Of a DNA stretch of 64,000 bases, positions 40,098 to 50,330 are shown piece by piece. Both the position numbers and the translations under genes were made by a program. The notes under the pieces were generated by a model. The model was not told the DNA's origin, ran no database searches, and saw only the letters and a list, made by a program, of their open reading frames with translations. Positions within the stretch are counted from its first letter, which is position 1. Every line of letters starts with the position of its first letter. The stretch lies in IMG/VR virus record IMGVR_UViG_3300042401_001499; one strand, 5' to 3'. Source of the stretch: a virus. Its lineage: Duplodnaviria; Heunggongvirae; Uroviricota; Caudoviricetes.

Positions 40098-40162
40098 TAA
40101 AAAAGTTGGAGAAGTAAATTAAAGTTCGTATATTTAAGTATTATTAATAAAAGTAAATAAAA

Positions 40163-41829: not shown

Positions 41830-41917
41830 ACAAAAGAGTTGCTAGAAAGAATAAAAGTTCGTATATTTAGGTATAAGAAATAAGAATAAGAGTTCATTGA
41901 CATATTGGATAAAATTT

Positions 41918-42001
41918 GGAAGGCGGCCGAATGGACGAGGAGCTTGTCTTGAAAACAAGTAGCGGGTAACACCGTTGTGGGTTCGATTCCCATGCCTTCC
42001 T
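41918..42001 (+). tRNA. tRNA-Ser(TGA)
   Basis: ggaaggc/gccttcc; cttgt-CT TGA AA-acaag; long variable arm; TTCGATT. Confidence 0.9.
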
Positions 42002-42007
42002 CAATAT

Positions 42008-42078
42008 TGCCCGTTCGTATAAAAGTAGTACACATGTCTTTGACACATGCGGAGAAGGAGCGTTACCTTCATGGGCAA
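42008..42078 (+). tRNA. tRNA-Gln(TTG), non-canonical T-loop AGCGTTA
   Basis: tgcccgt/atgggca; catgt-CT TTG AC-acatg. Confidence 0.85.
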
Positions 42079-42090
42079 CAAATTAAATTT

Positions 42091-42161
42091 CTAGTAGCGA
42101 AGCTAGGTTACATGCCTCACTTGGACTGAGGAGTACGCAGGTTCGAATCCTGCCTATTAGA
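42091..42161 (+). tRNA. tRNA-Pro(TGG)
   Basis: ctagtag/ctattag; cctca-CT TGG AC-tgagg; TTCGAAT. Confidence 0.85.
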
Positions 42162-42166
42162 CAATC

Positions 42167-42237
42167 GCCCTCTAGGCTTTAAAGTGAAGCACCTAGCTTT
42201 TAACTAGGGTAAGAAGGAGCATTACCTTCAGGGGGTA
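42167..42237 (+). tRNA. tRNA-Lys(TTT), non-canonical T-loop AGCATTA
   Basis: gccctct/agggggt; cctag-CT TTT AA-ctagg. Confidence 0.85.
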
Positions 42238-42296
42238 CACGGATGAGATTGTTACTAATTCATAGAACTGCATGGTGTGAGCGTAGAATTAGATTT

Positions 42297-42367
42297 GCCT
42301 CGTTGGCGTAATGGGAGCGTATTTCTTTTACATGGAAATGGCAGTGGTTCGATTCCACTACGAGGTA
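42297..42367 (+). tRNA. tRNA-Val(TAC)
   Basis: gcctcgt/acgaggt; tttct-TT TAC AT-ggaaa; TTCGATT. Confidence 0.85.
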
Positions 42368-42368
42368 C

Positions 42369-42564
42369 TAAGTAAGTTAATATGCTGTGAAAGCTTCAAT
42401 GAGCGCAAGTTGAAGTTAGGTGGGTTCGAGCCCCTCTACTGTAGTAATAGCCTAAGTCGGAGGCAGCCAAGTAGCAGATAACATATTATAGCCGATTTGG
42501 GTTGTGCACCTCGTCCGAGAAGCCCTAATAGTTCCTAATAGTTCGGTATGGAACAACTTACTTA
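42369..42564 (+). ncRNA. Putative ~195-nt structured ncRNA between tRNA-Val and tRNA-Tyr
   Basis: 10-bp closing stem taagtaagtt/aacttactta; several internal stems; 10-bp pseudoknot 42451-60/42492-501. Confidence 0.6.
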
Positions 42565-42568
42565 AAAT

Positions 42569-42639
42569 GGGGACAACAGGCAAGGTGCCGAGCAGCTCTG
42601 TAAAAGCTCACTGGGTAGGTTCGATTCCTACTGGCCCCA
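42569..42639 (+). tRNA. tRNA-Tyr(GTA), short variable loop, two mismatches
   Basis: ggggaca/tggcccc; agct-CT GTA AA-agct; TTCGATT. Confidence 0.75.
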
Positions 42640-42745
42640 CAAAGTCATGGCATCAAATCCCGGTAGGGGTGCTGACTTAAAATAAACAACGATGGTGAAA
42701 ATGGAGTCCTGCAGGCTAACCAGAAGTAACAACGAGGGGATAATT

Positions 42746-42818
42746 GGGGATTAAGCTAATCTAGTGAAAGCGCTAGCCTGAAGAGTTAGAGAGATCGGAG
42801 CGTAACCGATAGTCCCCA
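42746..42818 (+). tRNA. tRNA-Phe(GAA), non-canonical T-loop AGCGTAA
   Basis: ggggatt/agtcccc; ctagc-CT GAA GA-gttag. Confidence 0.85.
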
Positions 42819-42824
42819 CAATAT

Positions 42825-42899
42825 TGGTCTGAAGCTTAAGAGGTATACAGCGGAGGTTTGTTAAACCTAGGATAGCAGGTTCGAGTCCTGTCAGACCAG
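42825..42899 (+). tRNA. tRNA-Asn(GTT)
   Basis: tggtctg/cagacca, G73; aggt-TT GTT AA-acct; TTCGAGT. Confidence 0.85.
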
Positions 42900-42901
42900 C
42901 A

Positions 42902-42961
42902 AAACTACTGAAATTGAATGACACGAGCTTCATACGTTCGAAAGGAGTCATGCAGTAGTTT
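42902..42961 (+). ncRNA. 60-nt hairpin carrying an anticodon-like arm (CAT), no D or T arm
   Basis: aaactactg/cagtagttt, atgac/gtcat, cgagc-TT CAT AC-gttcg. Confidence 0.4.
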
Positions 42962-42966
42962 AAAAT

Positions 42967-43120
42967 GTTCGTATAGATGTGCTGTGGATACGCAGGGAAC
43001 ACATCGAGTGGGTTAATGATGGTAGTAGGTACACAACACTCCTTAATACTAGGATTGGAGCGAAGGGTTGATGCATACTGCAGGTAATTAACAAGACTGG
43101 TTCGATTCCAGTTACGGGCG
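42967..43120 (+). ncRNA. 154-nt tRNA-like RNA with enlarged D arm and ~70-nt insertion at anticodon position
   Basis: gttcgta/tacgggc acceptor; gatgtg/cacatc; gttaat/attaac; actgg-TTCGATT-ccagt. Confidence 0.6.
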
Positions 43121-43125
43121 CAATT

Positions 43126-43197
43126 TCTCCTATAGTAGAATGGTTAGCACACATCTCTGATAAGGATGAAATGGAAGTTCAATTCTTCCTAGGAGTA
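43126..43197 (+). tRNA. tRNA-Ile(GAT)
   Basis: ctccta/taggag; catct-CT GAT AA-ggatg; TTCAATT. Confidence 0.85.
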
Positions 43198-43199
43198 CA

Positions 43200-43305
43200 A
43201 AAGTTACCACGCTTGTTCCGTCAGTGGTTGTAAAGTCGAATCAATAAACGGAACCCCAAATGGAGGTCTTGCCTTAGTAGACTAAAGATTCTAAACGACA
43301 ACTTT
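43200..43305 (+). ncRNA. Putative pseudoknotted ncRNA
   Basis: accac/gtggt hairpin whose loop gttccgt pairs with acggaac; aaagtt/aacttt ends. Confidence 0.5.
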
Positions 43306-43309
43306 AAAT

Positions 43310-43392
43310 GGAAAGTAAATCAACTAGGAGTTGAGACCGCTTGCTAAGCGTATCGTGCCTTCGGGCATGGGGTTCGATACCTCTACTTTCCT
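43310..43392 (+). tRNA. tRNA-Ser(GCT)
   Basis: ggaaagt/actttcc; TT GCT AA loop; gtgcc-ttcg-ggcat variable arm; weak anticodon stem. Confidence 0.75.
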
Positions 43393-43529
43393 CTTTAAAA
43401 ACCTGGTCCCTGTCCTCATAAAGTGTTTAAGGAACACAGGAGTTGAATGTGCATTCGGGGCGGATAGTGGTGGGACACTGATAAATAAAATCTTAAGCAC
43501 AAAGATAAGTTAACGGGTTCTTATCAACT

Positions 43530-43598
43530 ACCGACTTGATCTAGGATCGAAAATATCTCATAAGTATTTTCAGACAAGAGCGTAACTTGTAGTCGGTA
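43530..43598 (+). tRNA. Atypical tRNA with CAT anticodon (3-nt D loop, 8-bp anticodon stem, AGCGTAA T-loop)
   Basis: accgact/agtcggt; gatc-tag-gatc; gaaaatat-CT CAT AA-gtattttc; acaag/cttgt. Confidence 0.6.
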
Positions 43599-43602
43599 CA
43601 AA

Positions 43603-43679
43603 GCTAAAGTGGTGAAATTGGTAAACACTCCCATCGAGAGATGGTGCGGATTTTGTAGGTTCGAGTCCTACCTTTAGTG
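43603..43679 (+). pseudogene. Degenerate tRNA-Leu-like gene (GAG?)
   Basis: gctaaag/ctttagt, Leu-type D arm and TTCGAGT T arm intact; anticodon arm folds as ccatc-gaga-gatgg with 4-nt loop. Confidence 0.55.
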
Positions 43680-43684
43680 TATAT

Positions 43685-43756
43685 GGTGTTTCTAGCTTAA
43701 TCGGTAAAGTGCTTCACTGTGAATGAAGAGAACAGGGTTCGAAACCCGGAAACACA
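43685..43756 (+). tRNA. tRNA-His(GTG) with encoded G-1
   Basis: g+gtgtttc/gaaacac; cttca-CT GTG AA-tgaag; T stem slightly irregular. Confidence 0.8.
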
Positions 43757-43851
43757 CGACGACGCCCAAAGGACGATCGACCTGGCCAGAGACTAGTTCT
43801 TGCAAACTCAATGCCTAAAGTTGAGCGGCCAATCTATGGGATTGGCTTTAC

Positions 43852-43924
43852 ATCCCTGTGGTGAAACGGTAAACACAACGAGTTTAAGCCTCGTAAGCTG
43901 CAGGTTCGACTCCTGTCAGGGATA
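43852..43924 (+). tRNA. tRNA-Leu(TAA), short variable loop
   Basis: atccctg/cagggat; acgag-TT TAA GC-ctcgt; TTCGACT. Confidence 0.85.
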
Positions 43925-43929
43925 CAAAT

Positions 43930-44002
43930 GGTCTTGTAGCATAAATGGAAATGCACTTGAATACGAATCAAGAGATTGTAGGCTCGAATCCTACCAGGAC
44001 TT
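43930..44002 (+). tRNA. tRNA-Arg(ACG)
   Basis: ggtcttg/caggact; cttga-AT ACG AA-tcaag; T-loop CTCGAAT. Confidence 0.8.
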
Positions 44003-44007
44003 CAATT

Positions 44008-44079
44008 GCCCTATTAGTTAAACGGATATAACGAATCTCTTCTAAAGATTAATTCTAGGTTCGATTCCTGGATGGGGTA
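44008..44079 (+). tRNA. tRNA-Arg(TCT)
   Basis: gccctat/atggggt; aatct-CT TCT AA-agatt; TTCGATT. Confidence 0.85.
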
Positions 44080-44142
44080 CAAAAAAATCGTATTGGAAGA
44101 AAGTTTGATCAACTTTCGTAGGTTAAGCGATATCCTACAAAT

Positions 44143-44213
44143 GCAGGTCACAGACAAGGTGTCGGTACGGTCTCCAAAACTGCTACGGGTAAGTTCGATT
44201 CTTACGGTCTGCG
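44143..44213 (+). tRNA. tRNA-Trp(CCA)
   Basis: gcaggtc/ggtctgc; cggt-CT CCA AA-actg; TTCGATT. Confidence 0.8.
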
Positions 44214-44245
44214 CAAAATAAATTGTTTCATTTAAAATTAAAATC

Positions 44246-44752
44246 ATGAGTAAGTACCAAAGAACACTGGTAATTGATTCAAGCTTTATGGCAAGATCTA
44301 TTATCTCTACCGAAAGAGCTTTCGTGATTTCGTATAAGGGTAATGCAGAAGTTATAGCTGAACATCCAGAAACATTCGGATTAGTAAATCCGGATTTAAA
44401 AATTAATAAACCTTCAATCATTAGGGTTTACAAATACGTAAAACAAGACATTCAAAAAGTTCCTCTAACAAGAGAGAACATTTATCGAAGAGATAATTAC
44501 GAATGTGTTTATTGTGGATCAAGTTACTTGAAGTCACTAACACTTGACCATGTCATCCCACAATCAAAAGGTGGAGCAAATGCTTGGGATAATTTAGTAA
44601 CAGCATGTAGAACTTGCAATTCAGAAAAAGCAGATTTAACTCTTGAGGAATATGGTAAAGACATAGTAGAACCAAAAAGACCTCATTATCTAATGCTTAT
44701 GAAACAGTTAACATACATTCCAAAAGAATGGGAAACATTTTTATTTTTCTAG
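44246..44752 (+). CDS. HNH endonuclease inside tRNA array
   Basis: RENIYRRDNYECVYCG; TLDHVIPQSKGG; WDNLVTACRTCNSEK. Confidence 0.92.
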   Translation: MSKYQRTLVIDSSFMARSIISTERAFVISYKGNAEVIAEHPETFGLVNPDLKINKPSIIRVYKYVKQDIQKVPLTRENIYRRDNYECVYCGSSYLKSLTLDHVIPQSKGGANAWDNLVTACRTCNSEKADLTLEEYGKDIVEPKRPHYLMLMKQLTYIPKEWETFLFF

Positions 44753-44808
44753 TAAAAAAAGTTGCTAGAAAGAAATAAAGTTCGTATCTTTAAGTATAAG
44801 AAAGAAAC

Positions 44809-44870
44809 ATCACCTACTACGTAACGCACGATCGACGACACGTACTGTCTGGCAGGTCAGGCTAGGTGAT
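44809..44870 (+). ncRNA. Putative 62-nt structured RNA just after promoter 44762
   Basis: atcaccta/taggtgat closing stem; tacgt/acgta. Confidence 0.4.
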
Positions 44871-44874
44871 AAAT

Positions 44875-44944
44875 GGGCAGGGTGGTCTTGGAGGCCGGTG
44901 GCATTGCAACAGCTACAGACAGAGTTCGATTCTCTGCTTGCCCT
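44875..44944 (+). tRNA. tRNA-Cys(GCA)
   Basis: gggcagg/cttgccc, U73; TT GCA AC loop; TTCGATT. Confidence 0.8.
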
Positions 44945-45040
44945 CATTGAAGGTTCGACCCTCTACCATCTTGTATTACACCTACAGATGGATATCGAGA
45001 GGGAGCTACCGATTGATAAGTGACCGCACATGCGGTAAAT

Positions 45041-45113
45041 GCCCGAGTGGTGGAACGGTAGACACGCTAGTCTTAGGAACTAGATACTGAGGGTTCGAAT
45101 CCCTCCTTGGGTA
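45041..45113 (+). tRNA. tRNA-Leu(TAG), short variable loop
   Basis: gcccgag/cttgggt; ctagt-CT TAG GA-actag; TTCGAAT. Confidence 0.9.
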
Positions 45114-45190
45114 CGATAGTAGGACCGGGTTACCGGATATGGGTTCCTTAATTGGACAGAAGGACTGGAGTCCTAGTCGCCTACAAAATA

Positions 45191-45262
45191 AAATTAGAGT
45201 TCGCTTATAGTAAAGCAGCAGGGGCTAACCTGCAGAAGGGATTCCAACACCCACTCTAATTT
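45191..45262 (+). pseudogene. Degenerate cloverleaf (tRNA relic)
   Basis: aaattagagt/actctaattt; gctt/aagc; gcagg-GGCTAA-cctgc (6-nt loop); ggg/ccc. Confidence 0.45.
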
Positions 45263-45266
45263 ACTT

Positions 45267-45340
45267 GCTCTCGACGCACAAATGGTGGTGCACCGGATTT
45301 GTAACCCGGAATAGAGCCAGTTCGATCCTGGCCGAGAGCT
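45267..45340 (+). tRNA. tRNA-Thr(TGT)
   Basis: gctctcg/cgagagc; ccgg-TT TGT AA-ccgg; TTCGATC. Confidence 0.85.
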
Positions 45341-45348
45341 CAATAAAT

Positions 45349-45421
45349 GCGAATGTCGTATAACGGCTCATTACTCTTGACTTCCAATCAAGGAATGAGG
45401 GTTCGATTCCCTCCATTCGCT
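45349..45421 (+). tRNA. tRNA-Gly(TCC)
   Basis: gcgaatg/cattcgc; cttga-CT TCC AA-tcaag. Confidence 0.9.
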
Positions 45422-45427
45422 CAAAAT

Positions 45428-45499
45428 GGCCCTATCGTCTATCGGTTAGGACACATGGTTTTCATCCATGAAAGTCGGGTTCGACTCCCGGTGGGGCTA
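45428..45499 (+). tRNA. tRNA-Glu(TTC)
   Basis: ggcccta/tggggct; catgg-TT TTC AT-ccatg. Confidence 0.9.
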
Positions 45500-45504
45500 C
45501 AATT

Positions 45505-45576
45505 GGGGCTATAGTATAACGGCTATTACAATGGTTTTGCAAATCATAAATTGGAGTTCGATTCTCCATAGCTCCA
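45505..45576 (+). tRNA. tRNA-Ala(TGC)
   Basis: ggggcta/tagctcc with G3:U70; atggt-TT TGC AA-atcat. Confidence 0.9.
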
Positions 45577-45581
45577 CAAAA

Positions 45582-45653
45582 GGTCTATTCGTTCAACGGC
45601 TAGGACACTACCCTGTCACGGTAGGGATGAGAGTTCGATTCTCTCATAGACCG
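45582..45653 (+). tRNA. tRNA-Asp(GTC)
   Basis: ggtctat/atagacc, G73; ctacc-CT GTC AC-ggtag. Confidence 0.9.
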
Positions 45654-45659
45654 CTATAT

Positions 45660-45733
45660 CGCGAGTTGGTAGAAGATGGTATCTCGCTAGGCTCATAACC
45701 TAGAGGTCGGGGGTTCGAATCCCTCACTCGCTA
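45660..45733 (+). tRNA. tRNA-Met(CAT), initiator-like
   Basis: C1 mismatch (cgcgagt/actcgct); ctagg-CT CAT AA-cctag. Confidence 0.8.
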
Positions 45734-45738
45734 CTAAT

Positions 45739-45813
45739 GTCCTTTTAGCTCAGCCCGGTTAGAGCAGCTCGCTCATAACGAGAAGGTCACAGGTTCGAAT
45801 CCTGTATAGGACA
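45739..45813 (+). tRNA. tRNA(CAT), Ile2 or elongator Met
   Basis: gtccttt/ataggac; ctcg-CT CAT AA-cgag; TAGCTCAG D arm. Confidence 0.8.
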
Positions 45814-45843
45814 CAAAAATTTTATCCAATAAAAATAAAAGTT

Positions 45844-46284
45844 ATGAGAAGAGAGCCTGATTTTAAAGACTTAAATTACCAATTGGGAATGTATGTTGGA
45901 GAACATATTACGTTTAAATATCTTCCAGTACTATCTACAGATGCACTAAGAACAAATACAATAGTACCAGTATCTGAAGAAGATGCTGAAAGACATAGAA
46001 TTGTAGATGATACGCTATACAGTTGCAAAACAGACAGGCAAAAAAAGTTCGCAGTCTATAAAGCTCTAAACAATGAACTTGCTAGAAAATATCTCTCAGA
46101 AAAATTAGATTGCATAGTACCTAAAGTCTATCCAACAGATATGGATAAATTTAAAGAAGGACTAATGGATCAGTTATGGGATACAGATTTATCTCATTAT
46201 CTTCCAGAAGATGACTTCTATCAAGTGGGACATGAAATGGGTTGGGCAGATCATATTATACTTACTTTAAAAATAAATGATTAA
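45844..46284 (+). CDS. Hypothetical protein
   Basis: Intact ORF after tRNA array. Confidence 0.55.
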   Translation: MRREPDFKDLNYQLGMYVGEHITFKYLPVLSTDALRTNTIVPVSEEDAERHRIVDDTLYSCKTDRQKKFAVYKALNNELARKYLSEKLDCIVPKVYPTDMDKFKEGLMDQLWDTDLSHYLPEDDFYQVGHEMGWADHIILTLKIND

Positions 46285-46341
46285 AAGTTTGGATATTAAA
46301 AATATTGTTCGTATATTAAATAAAAATAAAAGATCATAGTT

Positions 46342-47253
46342 ATGAAAAATTCATTAGCAGCAAAAGGGTTATCAATGTCACAAGCACAATCAATCTCAAA
46401 CTTGTGCAATCAACGTTCAAAAGATATTACAGCACAATTGGCTGATATCAATAACGTTTCAAAAGAATTAGTAATAGGTTCAGATACCTATACTGAGGTT
46501 AAAGGAAATCCAATTCCAGCAAACGTAGTTGAATTATTAACTGCTAAAGCAAGATTATCTGCCACTCAAGCATTCTTGATGGAGAACATCAAGGCTAAGG
46601 ACGAATTGATTAACAAAATCAAATACGAAGGATTTCAGTACTCAGTAGAGGCTCCAGTTCGTCCACAAACAATCTCAGAAAACATTCCAACAGAAGTGGA
46701 TGAGGATTTTGGTTGGGATACTTTAACAACAGCCGAATACAATGAATTTATAGAGGCAGAGGCTTATGCTTCACATATTGGACAATTTATCCACAAAGGA
46801 GGTAAATTGGATCGATTGAGAGCAGAACTTCCTACCATTAAAACTTTAGAGTTTATGGAAATTGAAGTAGGAAAGAAAACTCCACTTAAAATAACTATTC
46901 ATCATACTGCAGCACAATTGCTTACAATCCATGAGGAGTTAGCAGCATTACACAGAGGGTATGAGCAAAAAGTGAATTACTTCAAATCTAAGATTAAAAA
47001 TGCTACTACTTCTGAGAATGCTAAAATTCAGAAAGAGAGAGGAGAAATTCAAGCAAGAGTTAACCAACAAAACTCAGACCTAGCAAATGCTTATAAATTA
47101 GCATATGAGCAATGGACTGCAGAGCAACGTAAAGCTCAACACGAGTTTGAAGAAAAACGTCAAGCAAAAATTCAAGATGCTGTCAATTTAAAAATTGAAG
47201 TAGCAGAAAGATTTCAATCTGTAGTAGATGAATTTTTAAATCAATTAAAATAA
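46342..47253 (+). CDS. Alpha-helical/coiled-coil hypothetical protein with its own promoter, followed by large structured RNA
   Basis: 303-aa ORF; promoter at 46289; long heptad-rich C-terminal half. Confidence 0.75.
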   Translation: MKNSLAAKGLSMSQAQSISNLCNQRSKDITAQLADINNVSKELVIGSDTYTEVKGNPIPANVVELLTAKARLSATQAFLMENIKAKDELINKIKYEGFQYSVEAPVRPQTISENIPTEVDEDFGWDTLTTAEYNEFIEAEAYASHIGQFIHKGGKLDRLRAELPTIKTLEFMEIEVGKKTPLKITIHHTAAQLLTIHEELAALHRGYEQKVNYFKSKIKNATTSENAKIQKERGEIQARVNQQNSDLANAYKLAYEQWTAEQRKAQHEFEEKRQAKIQDAVNLKIEVAERFQSVVDEFLNQLK

Positions 47254-47257
47254 TTTG

Positions 47258-47567
47258 GTGCTAAGAAGGTAAGCACAAGCTGATCCTTCAGAGCTTTATG
47301 CTGGGATAGTAGGGTTTTAAATATAAACTATATGATATATTCAATATTCAACTACAGACATAAACACCTCCGGGTGTTTGTAAACTCGCTTCCCTACAAA
47401 CTTAAACCAAAACTGAGATAGAACTCAACAGCTAGACAGGTTACATCCCGTAAAGGGTGATTGGCTAGCGACTCTAGACTTAGTTTTTGTCCTTGCCCTT
47501 GTGGTAGTGGAAGGTTTTTGACTTTGATTTTGCATTTGACATCGTCTATATGCTTTACATCCCAGCA
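47258..47567 (+). ncRNA. Putative ~310-nt multi-domain structured RNA
   Basis: 9-bp stem tgctgggat/atcccagca; nested stems aaaactgag/cttagtttt, gctag/ctagc, aaacacc/ggtgttt; 5' kissing-loop pair gaagg/ccttc. Confidence 0.65.
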
Positions 47568-47645
47568 ACATTTTTTAAAAATAATTAACAAAAAGCTTGC
47601 TTACGCAGGCTTTTATTCGTATATTTAGGTATAAGAAAAAGAGAT

Positions 47646-48296
47646 ATGAAAATTACATTAGAAAAAGATCAAAGAATCTTCTTTACATCAGACACACATT
47701 ACGCTCACTCAAACATCTGTAGTGCTACTACAAACTGGACTGAGTCTTCGAACTTGACAAGAGAATTCAATTCACTTGATCATATGAACCAAGTACTTGT
47801 TGATAACATCAACAACATGGTTGGTGAAGATGATATCTTAATTCATTTAGGAGATTTTAGCTTTGGAGGATTTGATAAGATACAAGAATTCAGAAGTAGA
47901 ATCCTTTGTAAAAACATTCACTTGGTACTTGGAAATCATGATCACCACATTGAAAGAAACAAAGAAGGAGTTCAAAAACTATTCTCTTCAGTACAAAACT
48001 ACTTGAGATTAGAAGTAAGAAAGCCAATTAATAAGGCATTAACAGACAAGCATATTTTCGTTTGTATGCACTATCCAATTGCGTCATGGCATGATATGAA
48101 CCAAGGAGTAATTCACTTGCATGGCCACGTGCATTTACCTTCACACCTACGAATAGCAGAGGGTAAAGCAATGGATGTTGGAGTAGATGGAAATGGTTTA
48201 GAGCCTTTATCACTAGGAGAGATCCTTATGATTATGAAAGACCAACCAATTAGAAAATTAGAGTTACCAAAGGATCATCACGAAAAAAGAATCTAA
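47646..48296 (+). CDS. Calcineurin-like metallophosphoesterase
   Basis: FTSDTHY; HLGDF; LGNHD; HYP; HLHGHVH; DVGVD. Confidence 0.9.
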   Translation: MKITLEKDQRIFFTSDTHYAHSNICSATTNWTESSNLTREFNSLDHMNQVLVDNINNMVGEDDILIHLGDFSFGGFDKIQEFRSRILCKNIHLVLGNHDHHIERNKEGVQKLFSSVQNYLRLEVRKPINKALTDKHIFVCMHYPIASWHDMNQGVIHLHGHVHLPSHLRIAEGKAMDVGVDGNGLEPLSLGEILMIMKDQPIRKLELPKDHHEKRI

Positions 48297-48297
48297 T

Positions 48298-48684
48298 ATG
48301 AAAGAGTTATTTTTATTAAGAGGATTACCTGGATCAGGTAAATCAACATTTGCAAAGGCATTAACAGGTGTTTATACTATAGAAGCAGATAAGTACTTTA
48401 TGGATGGAGATGAATATAAATTTGATCCGTCTAAACTAAAAGATGCACATGCTTGGTGTCAAAATACTACACGGGTTTGGATGACAACTGGTGTAAAAAG
48501 AATCACAATAGCAAACACATTTACTCAGGAATGGGAAATGCAACCATACTACGATTTAGCTAAAGAGTACGGATACAGAGTTTACTCTTTGATTGTAGAA
48601 AATAGACATGAAGGGGTAAATGAACATGGAGTACCAGAAGAAAAATTAGTACAAATGAAAAATAGATTCGAGATCAAGCTATGA
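48298..48684 (+). CDS. P-loop polynucleotide kinase-like protein (AAA_33 type)
   Basis: LLRGLPGSGKST; IEADKYF; AHAWCQ; ANTFTQEWE; NEHGVP. Confidence 0.85.
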   Translation: MKELFLLRGLPGSGKSTFAKALTGVYTIEADKYFMDGDEYKFDPSKLKDAHAWCQNTTRVWMTTGVKRITIANTFTQEWEMQPYYDLAKEYGYRVYSLIVENRHEGVNEHGVPEEKLVQMKNRFEIKL

Positions 48685-48902: not shown

Positions 48903-50045
48903 ATGGAAAATAATAACAGTGTTTGCTTTATAGCAAAAATAAATGAAGTAAGAGCAATTGAAGGAGCAGATAACATCGAACTTGTAATCGCAGGTGGGTG
49001 GAATGCTATTACTAAAAAAGGTGAATTTAAAGTAGGTGATGAAACAATCATTGCAACTACTGATGCAGTTATACCAGAATCTCTTTCTGAGGAAATGGGA
49101 GTTGCTTCTTACCTAAGAAAAGGAGGTAGAGTAAGAACTGTTAAACTAAGAGGAGTTTATTCTGAATGTTTAATCATTCCAATGACTTACCTTAGGGGTA
49201 AAGCCACAATGGGGGATTGGGATTTAAAAGAAGGAAGTGACTGCATGGAACTATTAGGTATCACCAAATACGAACCACCAGTTAAACAAATTCAACTTGC
49301 TTCAGGTAGAAAAATCAAATGGAGAGACAATCAAAACTTCCATATCTATTACAAATTCCCAAACCTTAAAAACGTTGATGGAATGTTTACAGAAGAAGAT
49401 ACAGTAGAGATTTCTCGTAAAATTCATGGTACAAATGCTAGATACGGTATTGTAAAAAAGACTAAATTGTCATTCTGGGATAAAGTAAAAAAATTCTTTA
49501 GATTAGCTGATAAGTGGATTAACTACGAATACATTTACGGTTCACATAACTGTGAGAAAGGATCTGACTCTCAAGGATTTTATTCTGAAGATGTTTGGAA
49601 AACAATTGCTGAGAAGTATGATATTAAAGCTAAGCTTTGGAAATATGTTAAAGATACAGCTAATATTGTAGACATTGGAAGTGGTATAGTACTCTATGGA
49701 GAAATTTATGGAGCAGGTATTCAAAAGAACTATGACTATGGATTGGATGATATTAAATTTATAGGATTTGATACAACTATGAAAGGTGACTATAATTCAC
49801 CAGCGGGTACTTACGGTGCATTTCATTCACTAGACTTACCTTATATTGAAGTACTTTATTTTGGACTTTGGAATCAAGAAGTACAGGATAAGTTTGTATT
49901 TAACAACTTCATTGAAGGAACAAAAGTACCACATGAAGGAATTGTAATCAAACACAGTTCAGGAGATAGAAAAAAAGTAGCAAAGGTAATCAATCCAGAC
50001 TATTTGATCTACGGAGAGAAGAATGATGTAGGAGATTCACATTAA
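48903..50045 (+). CDS. RNA ligase, DRB0094-type with N-terminal tRNA-binding OB fold
   Basis: IEGADNIEL OB fold; LRGVYSECLI; motif I RKIHGTN; YGEIYG; GFD; EGIVIK; KVINPDYL. Confidence 0.9.
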   Translation: MENNNSVCFIAKINEVRAIEGADNIELVIAGGWNAITKKGEFKVGDETIIATTDAVIPESLSEEMGVASYLRKGGRVRTVKLRGVYSECLIIPMTYLRGKATMGDWDLKEGSDCMELLGITKYEPPVKQIQLASGRKIKWRDNQNFHIYYKFPNLKNVDGMFTEEDTVEISRKIHGTNARYGIVKKTKLSFWDKVKKFFRLADKWINYEYIYGSHNCEKGSDSQGFYSEDVWKTIAEKYDIKAKLWKYVKDTANIVDIGSGIVLYGEIYGAGIQKNYDYGLDDIKFIGFDTTMKGDYNSPAGTYGAFHSLDLPYIEVLYFGLWNQEVQDKFVFNNFIEGTKVPHEGIVIKHSSGDRKKVAKVINPDYLIYGEKNDVGDSH

Positions 50046-50111: not shown

Positions 50112-50282
50112 ATGAGAGGAAGAAGAGTTTATTGTGAAGATATATCTCCGGTTCTAAAATCAATTAGAACGTCTAAGAAACACGGAAAGACAGTAGAAAT
50201 CAACGGTCTACAGTACGAACATATAGGAGATGATATGTTGTATTGTTTAAAGACTTCAACCATTAAAAAGTTGGAGAATTAG
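50112..50282 (+). CDS. Small hypothetical protein (56 aa)
   Basis: MRGRRVYCEDISP... after promoter 50063. Confidence 0.5.
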   Translation: MRGRRVYCEDISPVLKSIRTSKKHGKTVEINGLQYEHIGDDMLYCLKTSTIKKLEN

Positions 50283-50330
50283 AATAAAGTTCGTATATTT
50301 AGGTATTAGAAATTTAAAACAAAAAAGGTT

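What the first reader, a model, noticed from the sequence alone, without database searches (positions are those of the whole stretch)
46289..47575. Orphan coiled-coil protein followed by a ~310-nt structured RNA with hexamer-periodic tract, directly upstream of RNA-repair genes
Seen: a stand-alone transcription unit (promoter 46289) with a 303-aa helical protein, then ~330 nt of non-coding DNA. It has two 5' hairpins (47258-76, 47277-96) with complementary loops (gaagg 47265-69 / ccttc 47285-89), a 9-bp long-range stem (47299-307/47559-67) and nested stems (47362-68/47373-79, 47409-17/47479-87, 47431-35/47465-69). ccctac at 47392-97 can pair either with 47309-14 or with 47504-13, suggesting a switch. 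The 3' part repeats TTG with 6-nt period (tttttg tccttg cccttg ... actttg attttg catttg). Known: Ro/Rsr proteins with Y RNAs sit beside RtcB repair operons. Inference: an undescribed protein-RNA pair, possibly an RNP linked to RNA repair, or a templating or switch RNA.
Basis: partly seen in the sequence, partly recalled or inferred. Interest (0 to 1): 0.8.

Follow-up and report, generated by a model that had tools for sequence, protein, structure and literature searches.

The report
New phage RNA with partner protein
The gene-free stretch encodes a real, elaborately folded RNA of about 315 bases that matches no catalogued RNA family and, across hundreds of uncultured phages, always sits just downstream of one protein gene of unknown fold, so it is most likely a new RNA-protein unit whose function is untested.

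Summary
Mostly confirmed, with corrections. Window 47254-47575 (+) is a conserved structured RNA. Five helices (P1, P2, P3, P5, P8) keep pairing through compensatory changes in 64-81 distinct homologues. Two unpaired U-rich tracts keep UUG at a strict 6-nt period.

It has no Rfam match and is not coding: the minus-strand ORF is intact only in the window itself (1 of 64).

The 303-aa protein is not an orphan. It has 2,473 homologues in 808 clusters at 50% identity. Its confidently predicted helix plus beta-hairpin fold matches nothing known.

Protein gene and RNA co-occur in every testable locus, in both directions, including deep relatives with a reduced RNA core.

Not supported:
- the two-hairpin 5' drawing (it is one hairpin, P1);
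- the proposed switch (47309-14 pairs with 47553-58, and 47392-97 with 47504-13);
- any templating role.

The tRNA and RNA-repair neighbourhood holds only in the closer relatives.

Best reading: an RNA-protein particle, with the periodic tracts as a protein-binding platform. This is inferred, not shown.

The scan found this same pair before on other DNA (e1-1851540 and several first-reader notes).

The parts
46284..46320 (+). Promoter-like module (AAAGTTTGG, 17 nt, TTCGTATATT) ahead of the 303-aa gene
   Evidence: It is a repeat family with copies at 40100, 41833, 44757, 47594 and 50265. The word occurs 27 times against 7.7 expected. That it acts as a promoter is inferred.
46342..47253 (+). 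Gene of the 303-aa partner protein (p303): helices plus two beta-hairpins, many invariant His/Glu/Asn residues, pI about 6
   Evidence: No family or fold match.
47254..47575 (+). The structured RNA as a whole. The conserved part runs from GGU at 47257 to the invariant AC at 47568-69.
   Evidence: An nhmmer profile finds it in 77 of 77 protein-found loci that have downstream sequence. There is one copy in the window. The + strand is favoured.
47257..47297 (+). P1: a long 5' hairpin with a conserved UAA/GAU internal loop and a small apical stem (G47273-C47280) capped by ANAA
   Evidence: In the swap test, cognate strands give -12.9 kcal/mol and swapped strands -5.9.
47299..47306 (+). P2, 5' strand of the closing helix
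   Evidence: All 8 pairs have compensatory changes.
47560..47567 (+). P2, 3' strand of the closing helix, followed by the invariant AC
47309..47314 (+). P3, 5' strand (GUAGGG)
   Evidence: Swap test: cognate -6.5 against swapped -3.1 kcal/mol. The + strand is better in 48 of 64 sequences.
47553..47558 (+). P3, 3' strand (CUUUAC)
47361..47379 (+). P4: a G+C-rich hairpin of changing sequence inside a variable A+U-rich region (47316-47385)
   Evidence: Mean z is -1.7, and 70% of homologues have z below -1.
47389..47397 (+). P5, 5' strand (CUUCC CUAC)
   Evidence: On the model-based alignment of 68 sequences, 7 of 7 pairs have changes on both sides.
47504..47513 (+). P5, 3' strand (GUAG U GGAAG, with one bulged U in the window)
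   Evidence: The helix is kept with new sequences in the deep relatives L169, L172, L173 and L174.
47415..47426 (+). P7: GAG-AUAGAA-CUC hairpin
   Evidence: L047 has AGG/CCU. Some clades replace it with a longer hairpin, and the deepest relatives lack it.
47431..47469 (+). P8 (47431-35 and 47437-39 paired with 47461-63 and 47465-69), enclosing the conserved GUUAC and the variable hairpin P9 (47444-47459)
   Evidence: 7 of 8 pairs have changes on both sides. P9 is covered.
47476..47501 (+). Tract A: invariant AGACUUAG, then UUUUUG, nnn-UUG, nCn-UUG. It is unpaired and has a 6-nt period.
   Evidence: It has no covarying partner.
47514..47551 (+). Tract B: GGUcUUUG, then three further UUG at 6-nt spacing, then the invariant CUAU. 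It is unpaired.
   Evidence: Periodic tracts are kept in deep relatives.
47590..47638 (+). A 10-bp hairpin (47590-47616) overlapping the next copy of the promoter-like module. This marks the end of the transcription unit.
   Evidence: This module is the only part with DNA similarity to an isolated phage, Flavobacterium phage immuto. That it terminates transcription is inferred; the scanner called no terminator here.

Best explanation
The stretch is the gene of a new class of phage structured RNA, about 315 nt long. It is made from the 3' end of the operon that starts with the 303-aa gene.

The fold, from the 5' end:
- a 5' hairpin (P1);
- two stacked closing helices (P2, P3);
- an inner long-range helix (P5) that encloses two or three hairpins.

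Two single-stranded U-rich tracts flank the 3' strand of P5. In them UUG recurs every six bases.

The most likely working mode is a ribonucleoprotein. The helices build a rigid scaffold that displays the two periodic tracts. Several copies or repeated modules of a protein bind those tracts. That protein is most likely the co-encoded 303-aa protein, which has two similar helix, beta-hairpin, helix modules and a conserved basic stripe (residues 211-229).

Shown: the RNA fold, its strand, its non-coding nature and its obligate linkage to the gene.
Inferred: transcription with the gene, release from the transcript, and binding of the protein to the tracts.
For: Fold:
- 24 of 29 RNAalifold pairs have compensatory changes.
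- On a model-based alignment of 68 sequences, 95.9% of cells pair. Shuffles give 78.8% and slid controls 35-57%. No shuffle of 500 reaches the observed value on any measure.
- Cognate strands pair far better than swapped strands for P1, P2, P3, P5 and P8. Control regions show no difference.

Strand: G-U pairs favour the + strand. P5 is better on + in 60 of 64 sequences and P3 in 48 of 64.

Linkage:
- The RNA is present after the gene in 77 of 77 loci.
- A DNA pattern search for the RNA alone gave 67 evaluable true hits, and all have the gene upstream.
- All seven deep relatives with downstream sequence (L167-L170, L172-L174; those from the profile search have protein E-values of 1e-30 to 1e-40) keep P2, P5 and the periodic tracts. 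L173 was read by eye only; the covariance model missed it.
- The RNA starts 0-12 nt after the stop codon of the upstream same-strand ORF in 58 of 64 loci.

Platform:
- The tracts are conserved in sequence, have no covarying partner and show a strict 6-nt entropy cycle.
- Evenly spaced triplets are how TRAP and HutP sites are built (my own knowledge).

Protein: confident model (pLDDT 85.8) with two helix/beta-hairpin/helix units. A conserved YFKAKVKN...ENARI stripe has net charge +4.
Against: - No experiment or read data show the RNA exists as a discrete species.
- The protein is slightly acidic overall (median pI about 6) and has no known RNA-binding fold.
- One to three small ORFs can sit between the gene and the RNA, so the two are not physically locked together.
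- Linkage alone cannot tell binding from a shared pathway.
Confidence: 0.45

Rival explanations
1. An RNA-only machine of the ROOL/GOLLD type. The RNA folds, and perhaps multimerises, on its own. The 303-aa protein acts in the same pathway without binding it stably.
For: - Like ROOL and GOLLD, it is phage-encoded and lies by tRNA islands in many relatives (PMC12286853).
- In relative L065 a bona fide GOLLD RNA (306 bits) lies 1.3 kb downstream in the same island.
- The P1 internal loop matches the UAA/GAN tertiary-contact motif (and my own knowledge).
- The protein is acidic and has no RNA-binding fold.
Against: - ROOL and GOLLD have no fixed partner gene. Here the linkage holds in every testable locus across deep divergence.
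- Long conserved unpaired periodic tracts look more like a ligand platform than like cage-forming kissing loops.
Confidence: 0.25
2. A decoy or sponge. The periodic U-rich tracts soak up a host RNA-binding factor, such as a tRNA-directed nuclease, an Hfq/S1-like protein or a defence sensor, while p303 loads or protects the RNA.
For: - In the closer relatives it lies between a tRNA array and heal-and-seal RNA-repair genes. An RNA ligase recurs near a distant relative, L081.
- Units such as CUUUGAU resemble a Y-U-NNN-R anticodon loop (read from the sequence).
Against: - The tRNA/repair neighbourhood is missing in most relatives at 49-57% protein identity.
- No host factor is identified.
- The resemblance to anticodon loops is loose and was not tested.
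Confidence: 0.15
3. A cis-acting 3' untranslated element. It would stabilise the upstream mRNA or control read-through into the downstream operon.
For: - It always lies at the 3' end of a same-strand ORF. In the window it lies before a hairpin and the next promoter module.
- A U-run follows the invariant AC in some homologues (5 or more U in 25 of 64).
Against: - About 315 nt with five covarying helices and conserved single strands is far more than stabilisers or terminators need.
- It stays with p303 whatever gene follows, and other ORFs can separate it from p303.
- The downstream genes have their own promoter module.
- In L174 a tRNA starts about 3 nt after it, which suggests it is released by processing.
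Confidence: 0.08
4. Not an RNA gene: either a small protein gene (minus-strand 48-aa ORF 47571-47425 or plus-strand ORF 47461-47628) or a DNA-level site such as an origin or packaging signal.
For: - ORFs of 48-65 aa exist in the window.
- The TTG repeats would read as Gln codons on the minus strand.
Against: - The minus ORF is intact in 1 of 64 homologues and its length is spread evenly over all three residues modulo 3. The plus frame is open in 5 of 64. Conservation cycles with period 6, not 3.
- Compensatory changes with many G-U pairs on the + strand only do not fit a double-stranded DNA site.
Confidence: 0.02

Closest known systems
ROOL and GOLLD large ornate RNAs (Rfam; cryo-EM in PMC12286853)
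   Same: - Phage-encoded, often beside tRNA islands, multi-helix fold, unknown function.
- A true GOLLD lies in the same island as this RNA in relative L065.
   Different: - About 315 nt, against roughly 600-800 nt.
- No sequence or structure match to either Rfam model.
- An obligate partner protein gene.
- Two hexamer-periodic single-stranded tracts.
Ro60/Rsr with Y RNAs (YrlA) beside RtcB repair operons
   Same: A non-coding RNA encoded next to a protein gene and, in this window, next to RNA-repair genes.
   Different: - p303 has no TROVE or vWA domain and a different predicted fold.
- The RNA is three times larger and matches neither Y_RNA nor YrlA.
- The ligase here is the DRB0094/Rnl type, not RtcB.
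OLE RNA with its Oap partner proteins
   Same: A large, highly conserved structured RNA that works with proteins encoded beside it, with function still unclear (PMC12054373, abstract only).
   Different: OLE is bacterial (Bacillota), about 600 nt and has membrane-protein partners. There is no homology.
Triplet-repeat RNA sites of ring proteins: TRAP (GAG/UAG repeats) and HutP (UAG repeats)
   Same: A short conserved triplet repeated at a fixed spacing, in two clusters, in single-stranded RNA (my own knowledge of those systems).
   Different: - Those sites are in mRNA leaders and control attenuation.
- The proteins are small beta-rich rings.
- No TRAP or HutP domain is present here.
- Here the repeats are set in a large folded RNA.
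VIPR vrRNAs with Vipr RAMP proteins (bioRxiv 10.64898/2026.04.26.720920)
   Same: A phage-encoded protein plus an RNA whose key part alternates conserved and variable positions ahead of a structured part.
   Different: - Period 5 (YNNGG) against period 6 (UUG plus 3).
- About 100 nt against about 315 nt.
- Vipr is an RRM/RAMP protein, while p303 is helical.
- The variable positions here are not hypervariable between close relatives.

Membership tests
Any Rfam 15 family | Covariance-model match at or near the gathering score | tested here: not met
   No hit in the window at gathering thresholds. In 47150-47700 only chance hits, E 2-9 and far below gathering. No hit on the RNA in nine diverse homologous loci at E up to 1, while the same search found tRNAs, a group I intron and GOLLD nearby.
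Ro60/Rsr - Y RNA system | Partner protein with TROVE (and vWA) domains | tested here: not met
   No Pfam, NCBIfam or PHROG family for p303. No Ro60 chain appears among the fold matches; absence from those lists is weak evidence on its own.
Ro60/Rsr - Y RNA system | RNA of about 100 nt with a Ro-binding stem or tRNA-like module (Rfam Y_RNA, YrlA) | tested here: not met
   No match on this RNA. ARAGORN finds no tRNA-like gene in it.
Ro60/Rsr - Y RNA system | Neighbouring RtcB ligase | tested here: not met
   The neighbouring ligase has PF09414 RNA_ligase plus the PHA02142 OB fold, and matches TIGR02306 (DRB0094 type).
ROOL / GOLLD | Match to the family covariance models | tested here: not met
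   No match on this RNA. GOLLD was detected at 306 bits elsewhere in L065, so the search works.
ROOL / GOLLD | Phage location near tRNA islands | tested here: met
   18-19 tRNAs lie 0.5-5 kb upstream in the window. tRNAs lie upstream in most relatives with at least 60% protein identity, but in few of the distant ones.
ROOL / GOLLD | RNA-only homo-oligomeric cage | not testable with these tools
   Needs cryo-EM or native gels.
VIPR (Vipr RAMP + vrRNA) | RAMP/RRM protein, and tandem YNNGG units with hypervariable NN | tested here: not met
   The predicted fold is helices plus two beta-hairpins. The repeat is UUG plus 3 nt at period 6. The spacer bases are identical among homologues of 87-91% identity.
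TRAP / HutP type triplet-repeat sites | Conserved triplets at fixed spacing in unpaired RNA | tested here: met
   Three exactly spaced UUG in tract A in 72 of 81 sequences, and up to four or five in tract B. No covarying partners.
TRAP / HutP type triplet-repeat sites | TRAP or HutP protein domain encoded nearby | tested here: not met
   No such Pfam family in p303 or its neighbours.
Small protein-coding gene | Open frame kept in homologues, with period-3 conservation | tested here: not met
   Minus ORF intact in 1 of 64. Plus frame open in 5 of 64. Conservation has period 6, not 3.
tmRNA / tRNA-like RNA | Acceptor and T-arm module | tested here: not met
   ARAGORN and Rfam find none. No T-arm lies next to the closing helix in the alignment.

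The most novel reading that the evidence does not exclude
The pair is a new kind of phage ribonucleoprotein. A folded RNA scaffold displays two hexamer-periodic U-rich tracts. A protein of a new fold reads them unit by unit, as an oligomer or through its two repeated modules. The assembled particle acts on host or phage RNA metabolism during infection, for example on tRNA or its repair. This would be a recognition principle and a protein family with no described relative.
Probability: 0.25. Interest if true: 0.85.

Novelty: new variant of a known kind. Interest (0 to 1): 0.72.

Why it matters
- Large, ornate non-coding RNAs with strong covariation are rare. Each class found so far (RNase P, OLE, ROOL, GOLLD, raiA) has opened a line of structural and functional work.
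- This one is abundant in environmental phages: the partner protein alone has 808 clusters at 50% identity.
- It comes with a built-in handle for experiments, namely one obligate partner gene.
- It carries an unusual, deeply conserved six-base periodic motif that suggests a testable binding mode.
- It adds to the evidence that phage tRNA islands are hot spots for unexplained RNA machines.
- It gives a defined minimal core from the deep relatives (P1, P2, P5 and the two tracts) for biochemistry.

Tried and rejected
- **Rfam searches.** At gathering and permissive thresholds, on the window and on nine homologous loci: nothing on this RNA.
- **Protein family and fold searches.** Pfam, PHROGs, NCBIfam, PADLOC, a PDB sequence profile, Foldseek against PDB, BFVD and AFDB, the VIA-align wide search and ESM Atlas. 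They returned only the protein's own family and noise-level helical matches, best Z 7.6.
- **Homodimer prediction for p303.** The verdict was 'no answer': score 0.46, but one control scored 0.78. This is neither for nor against self-association.
- **Whole genome.** None is held for this window.
- **Isolated phages.** tblastn of p303 against 50,697 phage records found no match. Only the terminator/promoter module resembles Flavobacterium phage immuto.
- **GTDB genomes.** Five hits, all on MAG contigs. There is no evidence of prophages.
- **Candidate pairings rejected.**
  - AGACU 47476-80 with AGUCU 47543-47.
  - Tract A with tract B.
  - The P1 loop CACAAG with CUUGUG 47498-503: no mutual information.
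  - The P7 loop AUAGA with UCUAU 47545-49: both are invariant, so it is untestable, and there is no compensation in L053 or L055.
- **Extended P6 or triple-helix idea.** The linker length varies, so no fixed register holds.
- **Terminator role.** A U-run after the invariant AC is present in only 25 of 64 homologues.
- **Published catalogue.** The 10,006 viral structured RNAs of PMC10690425 are 29-151 nt long. Its supplementary alignments are not held, so I could not check whether a fragment of this RNA is listed there.
- **mafft-xinsi/qinsi.** Not installed.
Full report
**What is at the coordinates**

The window is A+T-rich phage DNA. It carries 18-19 tRNA genes at 41918-45814 on the + strand. 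Next comes an ORF at 46342-47253 (+, 303 aa), then a 392-nt gene-free gap, then genes for three RNA-repair enzymes:
- a metallophosphoesterase (47646-48296);
- a P-loop kinase (48298-48684);
- an RNA ligase with the PHA02142 OB fold, DRB0094 type (48903-50045).

The gap is richer in G+C (0.35-0.43) than ordinary spacers here (0.14-0.28). As a single sequence the + strand folds better than shuffles, z = -3.35.

A repeated module, AAAGTTGG, about 17 nt, TTCGTATATTTAGG, lies before the 303-aa gene (46284-46320) and again at 47594-47638. At the second site it overlaps a 10-bp hairpin (47590-47616). The ten-base word occurs 27 times in the window against 7.7 expected. So the gene and the gap look like one transcription unit. 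That is an inference from motifs.

**The protein is not an orphan**

- The word-indexed search found 2,473 homologues.
- The exhaustive profile search found 808 clusters at 50% identity, 467 of them below E 1e-10.
- Eighty viral contigs with 49-96% identity were fetched.
- It is absent from 50,697 isolated-phage records. In GTDB genomes it occurs only on MAG contigs.
- An alignment of 32 diverse members shows about 50 invariant residues, including six histidines and several Glu, Asn and Gln.
- AlphaFold2 gives a confident model, pLDDT 85.8 and pTM 0.76. It has two similar units of helix, beta-hairpin and long helix, plus C-terminal helices.
- No library gave a meaningful match: Pfam, PHROGs, NCBIfam, PADLOC, PDB sequences, Foldseek on PDB, BFVD and AFDB, and the Foldseek-independent search, whose best Z of 7.6 is at noise level for helical models.
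- The protein is mildly acidic, median pI about 6, with one conserved basic stripe at residues 211-229.

**The gap is conserved as a separable module**

- BLASTN and an nhmmer profile find the stretch 47254-47575 downstream of the gene in all 77 fetched loci that have downstream sequence.
- Its core stays 75-90% identical where the protein has dropped to 50-65%.
- As a reverse test, a degenerate DNA pattern from the 3' part, searched in all viral contigs without reference to the protein, gave 82 stretches.
  - Nine are chance matches inside unrelated ORFs, and the profile also misses them.
  - Six are at contig ends.
  - All 67 others have the protein gene upstream.
- One to three small ORFs (64-102 aa) can be inserted between the gene and the RNA, and other genes can follow it.
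- The RNA still begins 0-12 nt after the stop codon of whatever same-strand ORF precedes it, in 58 of 64 loci.
- There is one copy per window.

**It is a structured RNA on the + strand, not a coding or DNA element**

RNAalifold on 64 sequences below 93% identity predicts 29 pairs, and 24 of them have compensatory changes.

A covariance model of the inner domain realigned 68 sequences:
- 95.9% of cells pair, against 78.8% in shuffles and 35-57% when partners are slid.
- 14 of 16 pairs have changes on both sides.
- No shuffle of 500 reaches the observed value on any measure.

An alignment-light test compared duplex energy for cognate strands with strands swapped between sequences below 75% identity:

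| Helix or control | Cognate (kcal/mol) | Swapped (kcal/mol) |
|---|---|---|
| P1 | -12.9 | -5.9 |
| P2 | -11.4 | -4.0 |
| P3 | -6.5 | -3.1 |
| P5 | -13.9 | -8.5 |
| P8 | -6.4 | -3.7 |
| Control: tract A with tract B | no difference | |
| Control: AGACU with AGUCU | no difference | |

The sequences are related, so the p-values from this test are overstated. The controls show the effect is specific.

- G-U pairs make the + strand the better folder: P5 in 60 of 64 sequences, P3 in 48 of 64, P8 in 41 against 15.
- The minus-strand 48-aa ORF is intact in 1 of 64 homologues, with lengths spread over all three residues modulo 3. The plus-strand frame is open in 5 of 64.

**The fold, in window coordinates**

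- **P1**, 47257-47297: one long hairpin. It has a conserved internal loop, UAA opposite GAU, which fits the UAA/GAN tertiary motif as I recall it. A small covarying apical stem, G47273-C47280, is capped by ANAA.
- **P2**, 47299-306 with 47560-567: the closing helix, followed by an invariant AC.
- **P3**, 47309-14 with 47553-58.
- **Variable region**: A+U-rich, with a G+C-rich hairpin P4 at 47361-79 whose sequence changes while the hairpin stays.
- **P5**, 47389-97 with 47504-13.
- **Inside P5**: P7 (GAG-AUAGAA-CUC, 47415-26), and P8 (47431-39 with 47461-69) enclosing the conserved GUUAC and a variable hairpin P9.
- **P6**, 47410-14 with 47482-86: only weakly supported.

Each of those words has a different, covarying partner. 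Nothing therefore points to a switch.

**The periodic tracts**

Two unpaired tracts flank the 3' strand of P5.
- Tract A: AGACUUAG-UUUUUG-nnn-UUG-nCn-UUG (47476-47501).
- Tract B: GGUcUUUG-ann-UUG-auu-UUG-nn-UUUG-a...CUAU (47514-47551).

Column entropy cycles with period 6, from 0.20 at the most conserved phase to 0.86, and not with period 3. The conserved positions have no covarying partner anywhere in the RNA. Three exactly spaced UUG occur in tract A in 72 of 81 sequences.

The spacer bases vary at the general rate. They are identical among homologues of 87-91% identity, so they are not programmable guides.

**Deep relatives define a minimal core**

Five protein homologues taken from the exhaustive profile search (E 1e-30 to 1e-40) were traced to contigs with downstream sequence (L169, L170, L172-L174), and two more came from MAG contigs (L167, L168). 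All seven have the RNA.

In L169, L172, L173 and L174, the P7/P8 domain is reduced or lost. P1, P2 with its AC end, P5 (with entirely new sequences) and two hexamer-periodic pyrimidine-rich tracts ending in G remain. L173 was read by eye only, because the covariance model missed it. The tracts and the helices that frame them are therefore the oldest part.

**Context**

- In relatives with at least about 60% protein identity, the pair usually follows a tRNA array and often precedes the phosphoesterase, kinase and ligase genes.
- In most relatives at 49-57% identity, neither lies within 3 kb. Neighbours there include an SPFH protein, a peptide deformylase, a methyltransferase, an intein-bearing AAA ATPase, a helicase and, once, an RNA ligase.
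- The repair link is thus lineage-specific.
- In L065 the RNA is followed by a group I intron hit and a full GOLLD RNA.
- In L174 a tRNA-Arg gene starts about 3 nt after the RNA. RNase P would therefore cut its 3' end there.

**How it most likely works**

Shown:
- a folded + strand RNA;
- obligate linkage to one protein family;
- conserved single-stranded six-base repeats.

Inferred:
- The RNA is made from the operon transcript and released.
- It acts with p303 as a particle.
- The tracts are the binding platform, by analogy with the evenly spaced triplets bound by TRAP and HutP (my own knowledge) and, more loosely, with the alternating conserved and variable repeats of VIPR RNAs.

I put this at about 0.45. 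The rivals are:
- an RNA-only machine like ROOL or GOLLD (0.25);
- a decoy for a host factor (0.15);
- a cis-acting 3' element (0.08);
- a coding or DNA element (0.02).

A homodimer prediction gave no verdict.

**Comparison with the known, and novelty**

The RNA fails the membership tests for Ro/Y RNA, ROOL/GOLLD, VIPR, tmRNA and every Rfam family. It shares with ROOL and GOLLD only the phage tRNA-island habitat and its ornate fold (PMC12286853).

Literature searches found no description. The catalogue of 10,006 viral structured RNAs covers only motifs of 29-151 nt, and its alignments are not held, so a fragment could be listed there.

This scan has met the same pair before on other DNA: e1-1851540, which was followed up, and several first-reader notes. 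My results agree with that follow-up. They add a corrected helix map, rejection of the switch, the strand and coding tests, the deep minimal core and the period-6 analysis.

I rate it a new family within a known kind, namely phage large structured RNAs and RNA-protein pairs. There is a real chance that the periodic-tract recognition is something new.

Noticed in passing
L065:4274-4461 and L065:5528-5942: In a relative (partner protein 53% identical) the RNA (L065:3910-4228) is followed within 50 nt by a group I intron hit (RF00028, 61 bits), and 1.3 kb later by a full-length GOLLD RNA (RF02032, 306 bits). Three large structured RNAs therefore share one tRNA island.
   Followed up: no
L065:2843-2920: ARAGORN calls a tRNA with anticodon TTA (it would read the UAA stop codon) just upstream of the partner gene in this relative.
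   Followed up: no
L174:4419-4491: In a deep relative a tRNA-Arg(TCT) gene starts about 3 nt after the 3' closing strand of the RNA. tRNA 5' processing would therefore define the RNA's 3' end.
   Followed up: partly
window 40100-40147, 41833-41880, 44757-44803, 46284-46320, 47594-47638, 50265-50312: A repeated promoter-like module (AAAGTTGG, about 17 nt, TTCGTATATTTAGGTATAAG). Its second box resembles the Bacteroidota -7 motif TAnnTTTG. It is the only part of the region with DNA similarity to an isolated phage (Flavobacterium phage immuto, 83% over 65 nt).
   Followed up: partly
window 44246-44752: An HNH endonuclease gene (PF14279/PF01844) sits inside the tRNA array. The same gene recurs upstream of the pair in many relatives.
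   Followed up: no
window 42746-42899 and 44875-44945: The tRNA callers disagree. Rfam finds tRNAs at 42746-42818 and 42825-42899 that ARAGORN misses. ARAGORN finds a tRNA-Cys at 44875-44945 that Rfam misses at its gathering score.
   Followed up: no
L041:2636-2718: A weak YrlA (Y RNA-like) hit, 31.9 bits against a gathering score of 69, lies upstream of the partner gene in a relative from a 434-kb contig. It is probably tRNA-related noise but was not checked.
   Followed up: no
L003:3918-4190, L005:4229-4501, L013:3918-4208, L023:4199-4486, L024:3918-4205: A conserved 90-96-aa ORF (motif CL.DYE..IRFL..GC...VGCK) is inserted between the partner gene and the RNA in several relatives. Its function is unknown.
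   Followed up: no
L078:4681-5868 and L063:4233-4856: Unusual neighbours in distant relatives: a peptide deformylase fused to an HNH_3 domain, and a RuvB-like AAA ATPase interrupted by an intein.
   Followed up: no
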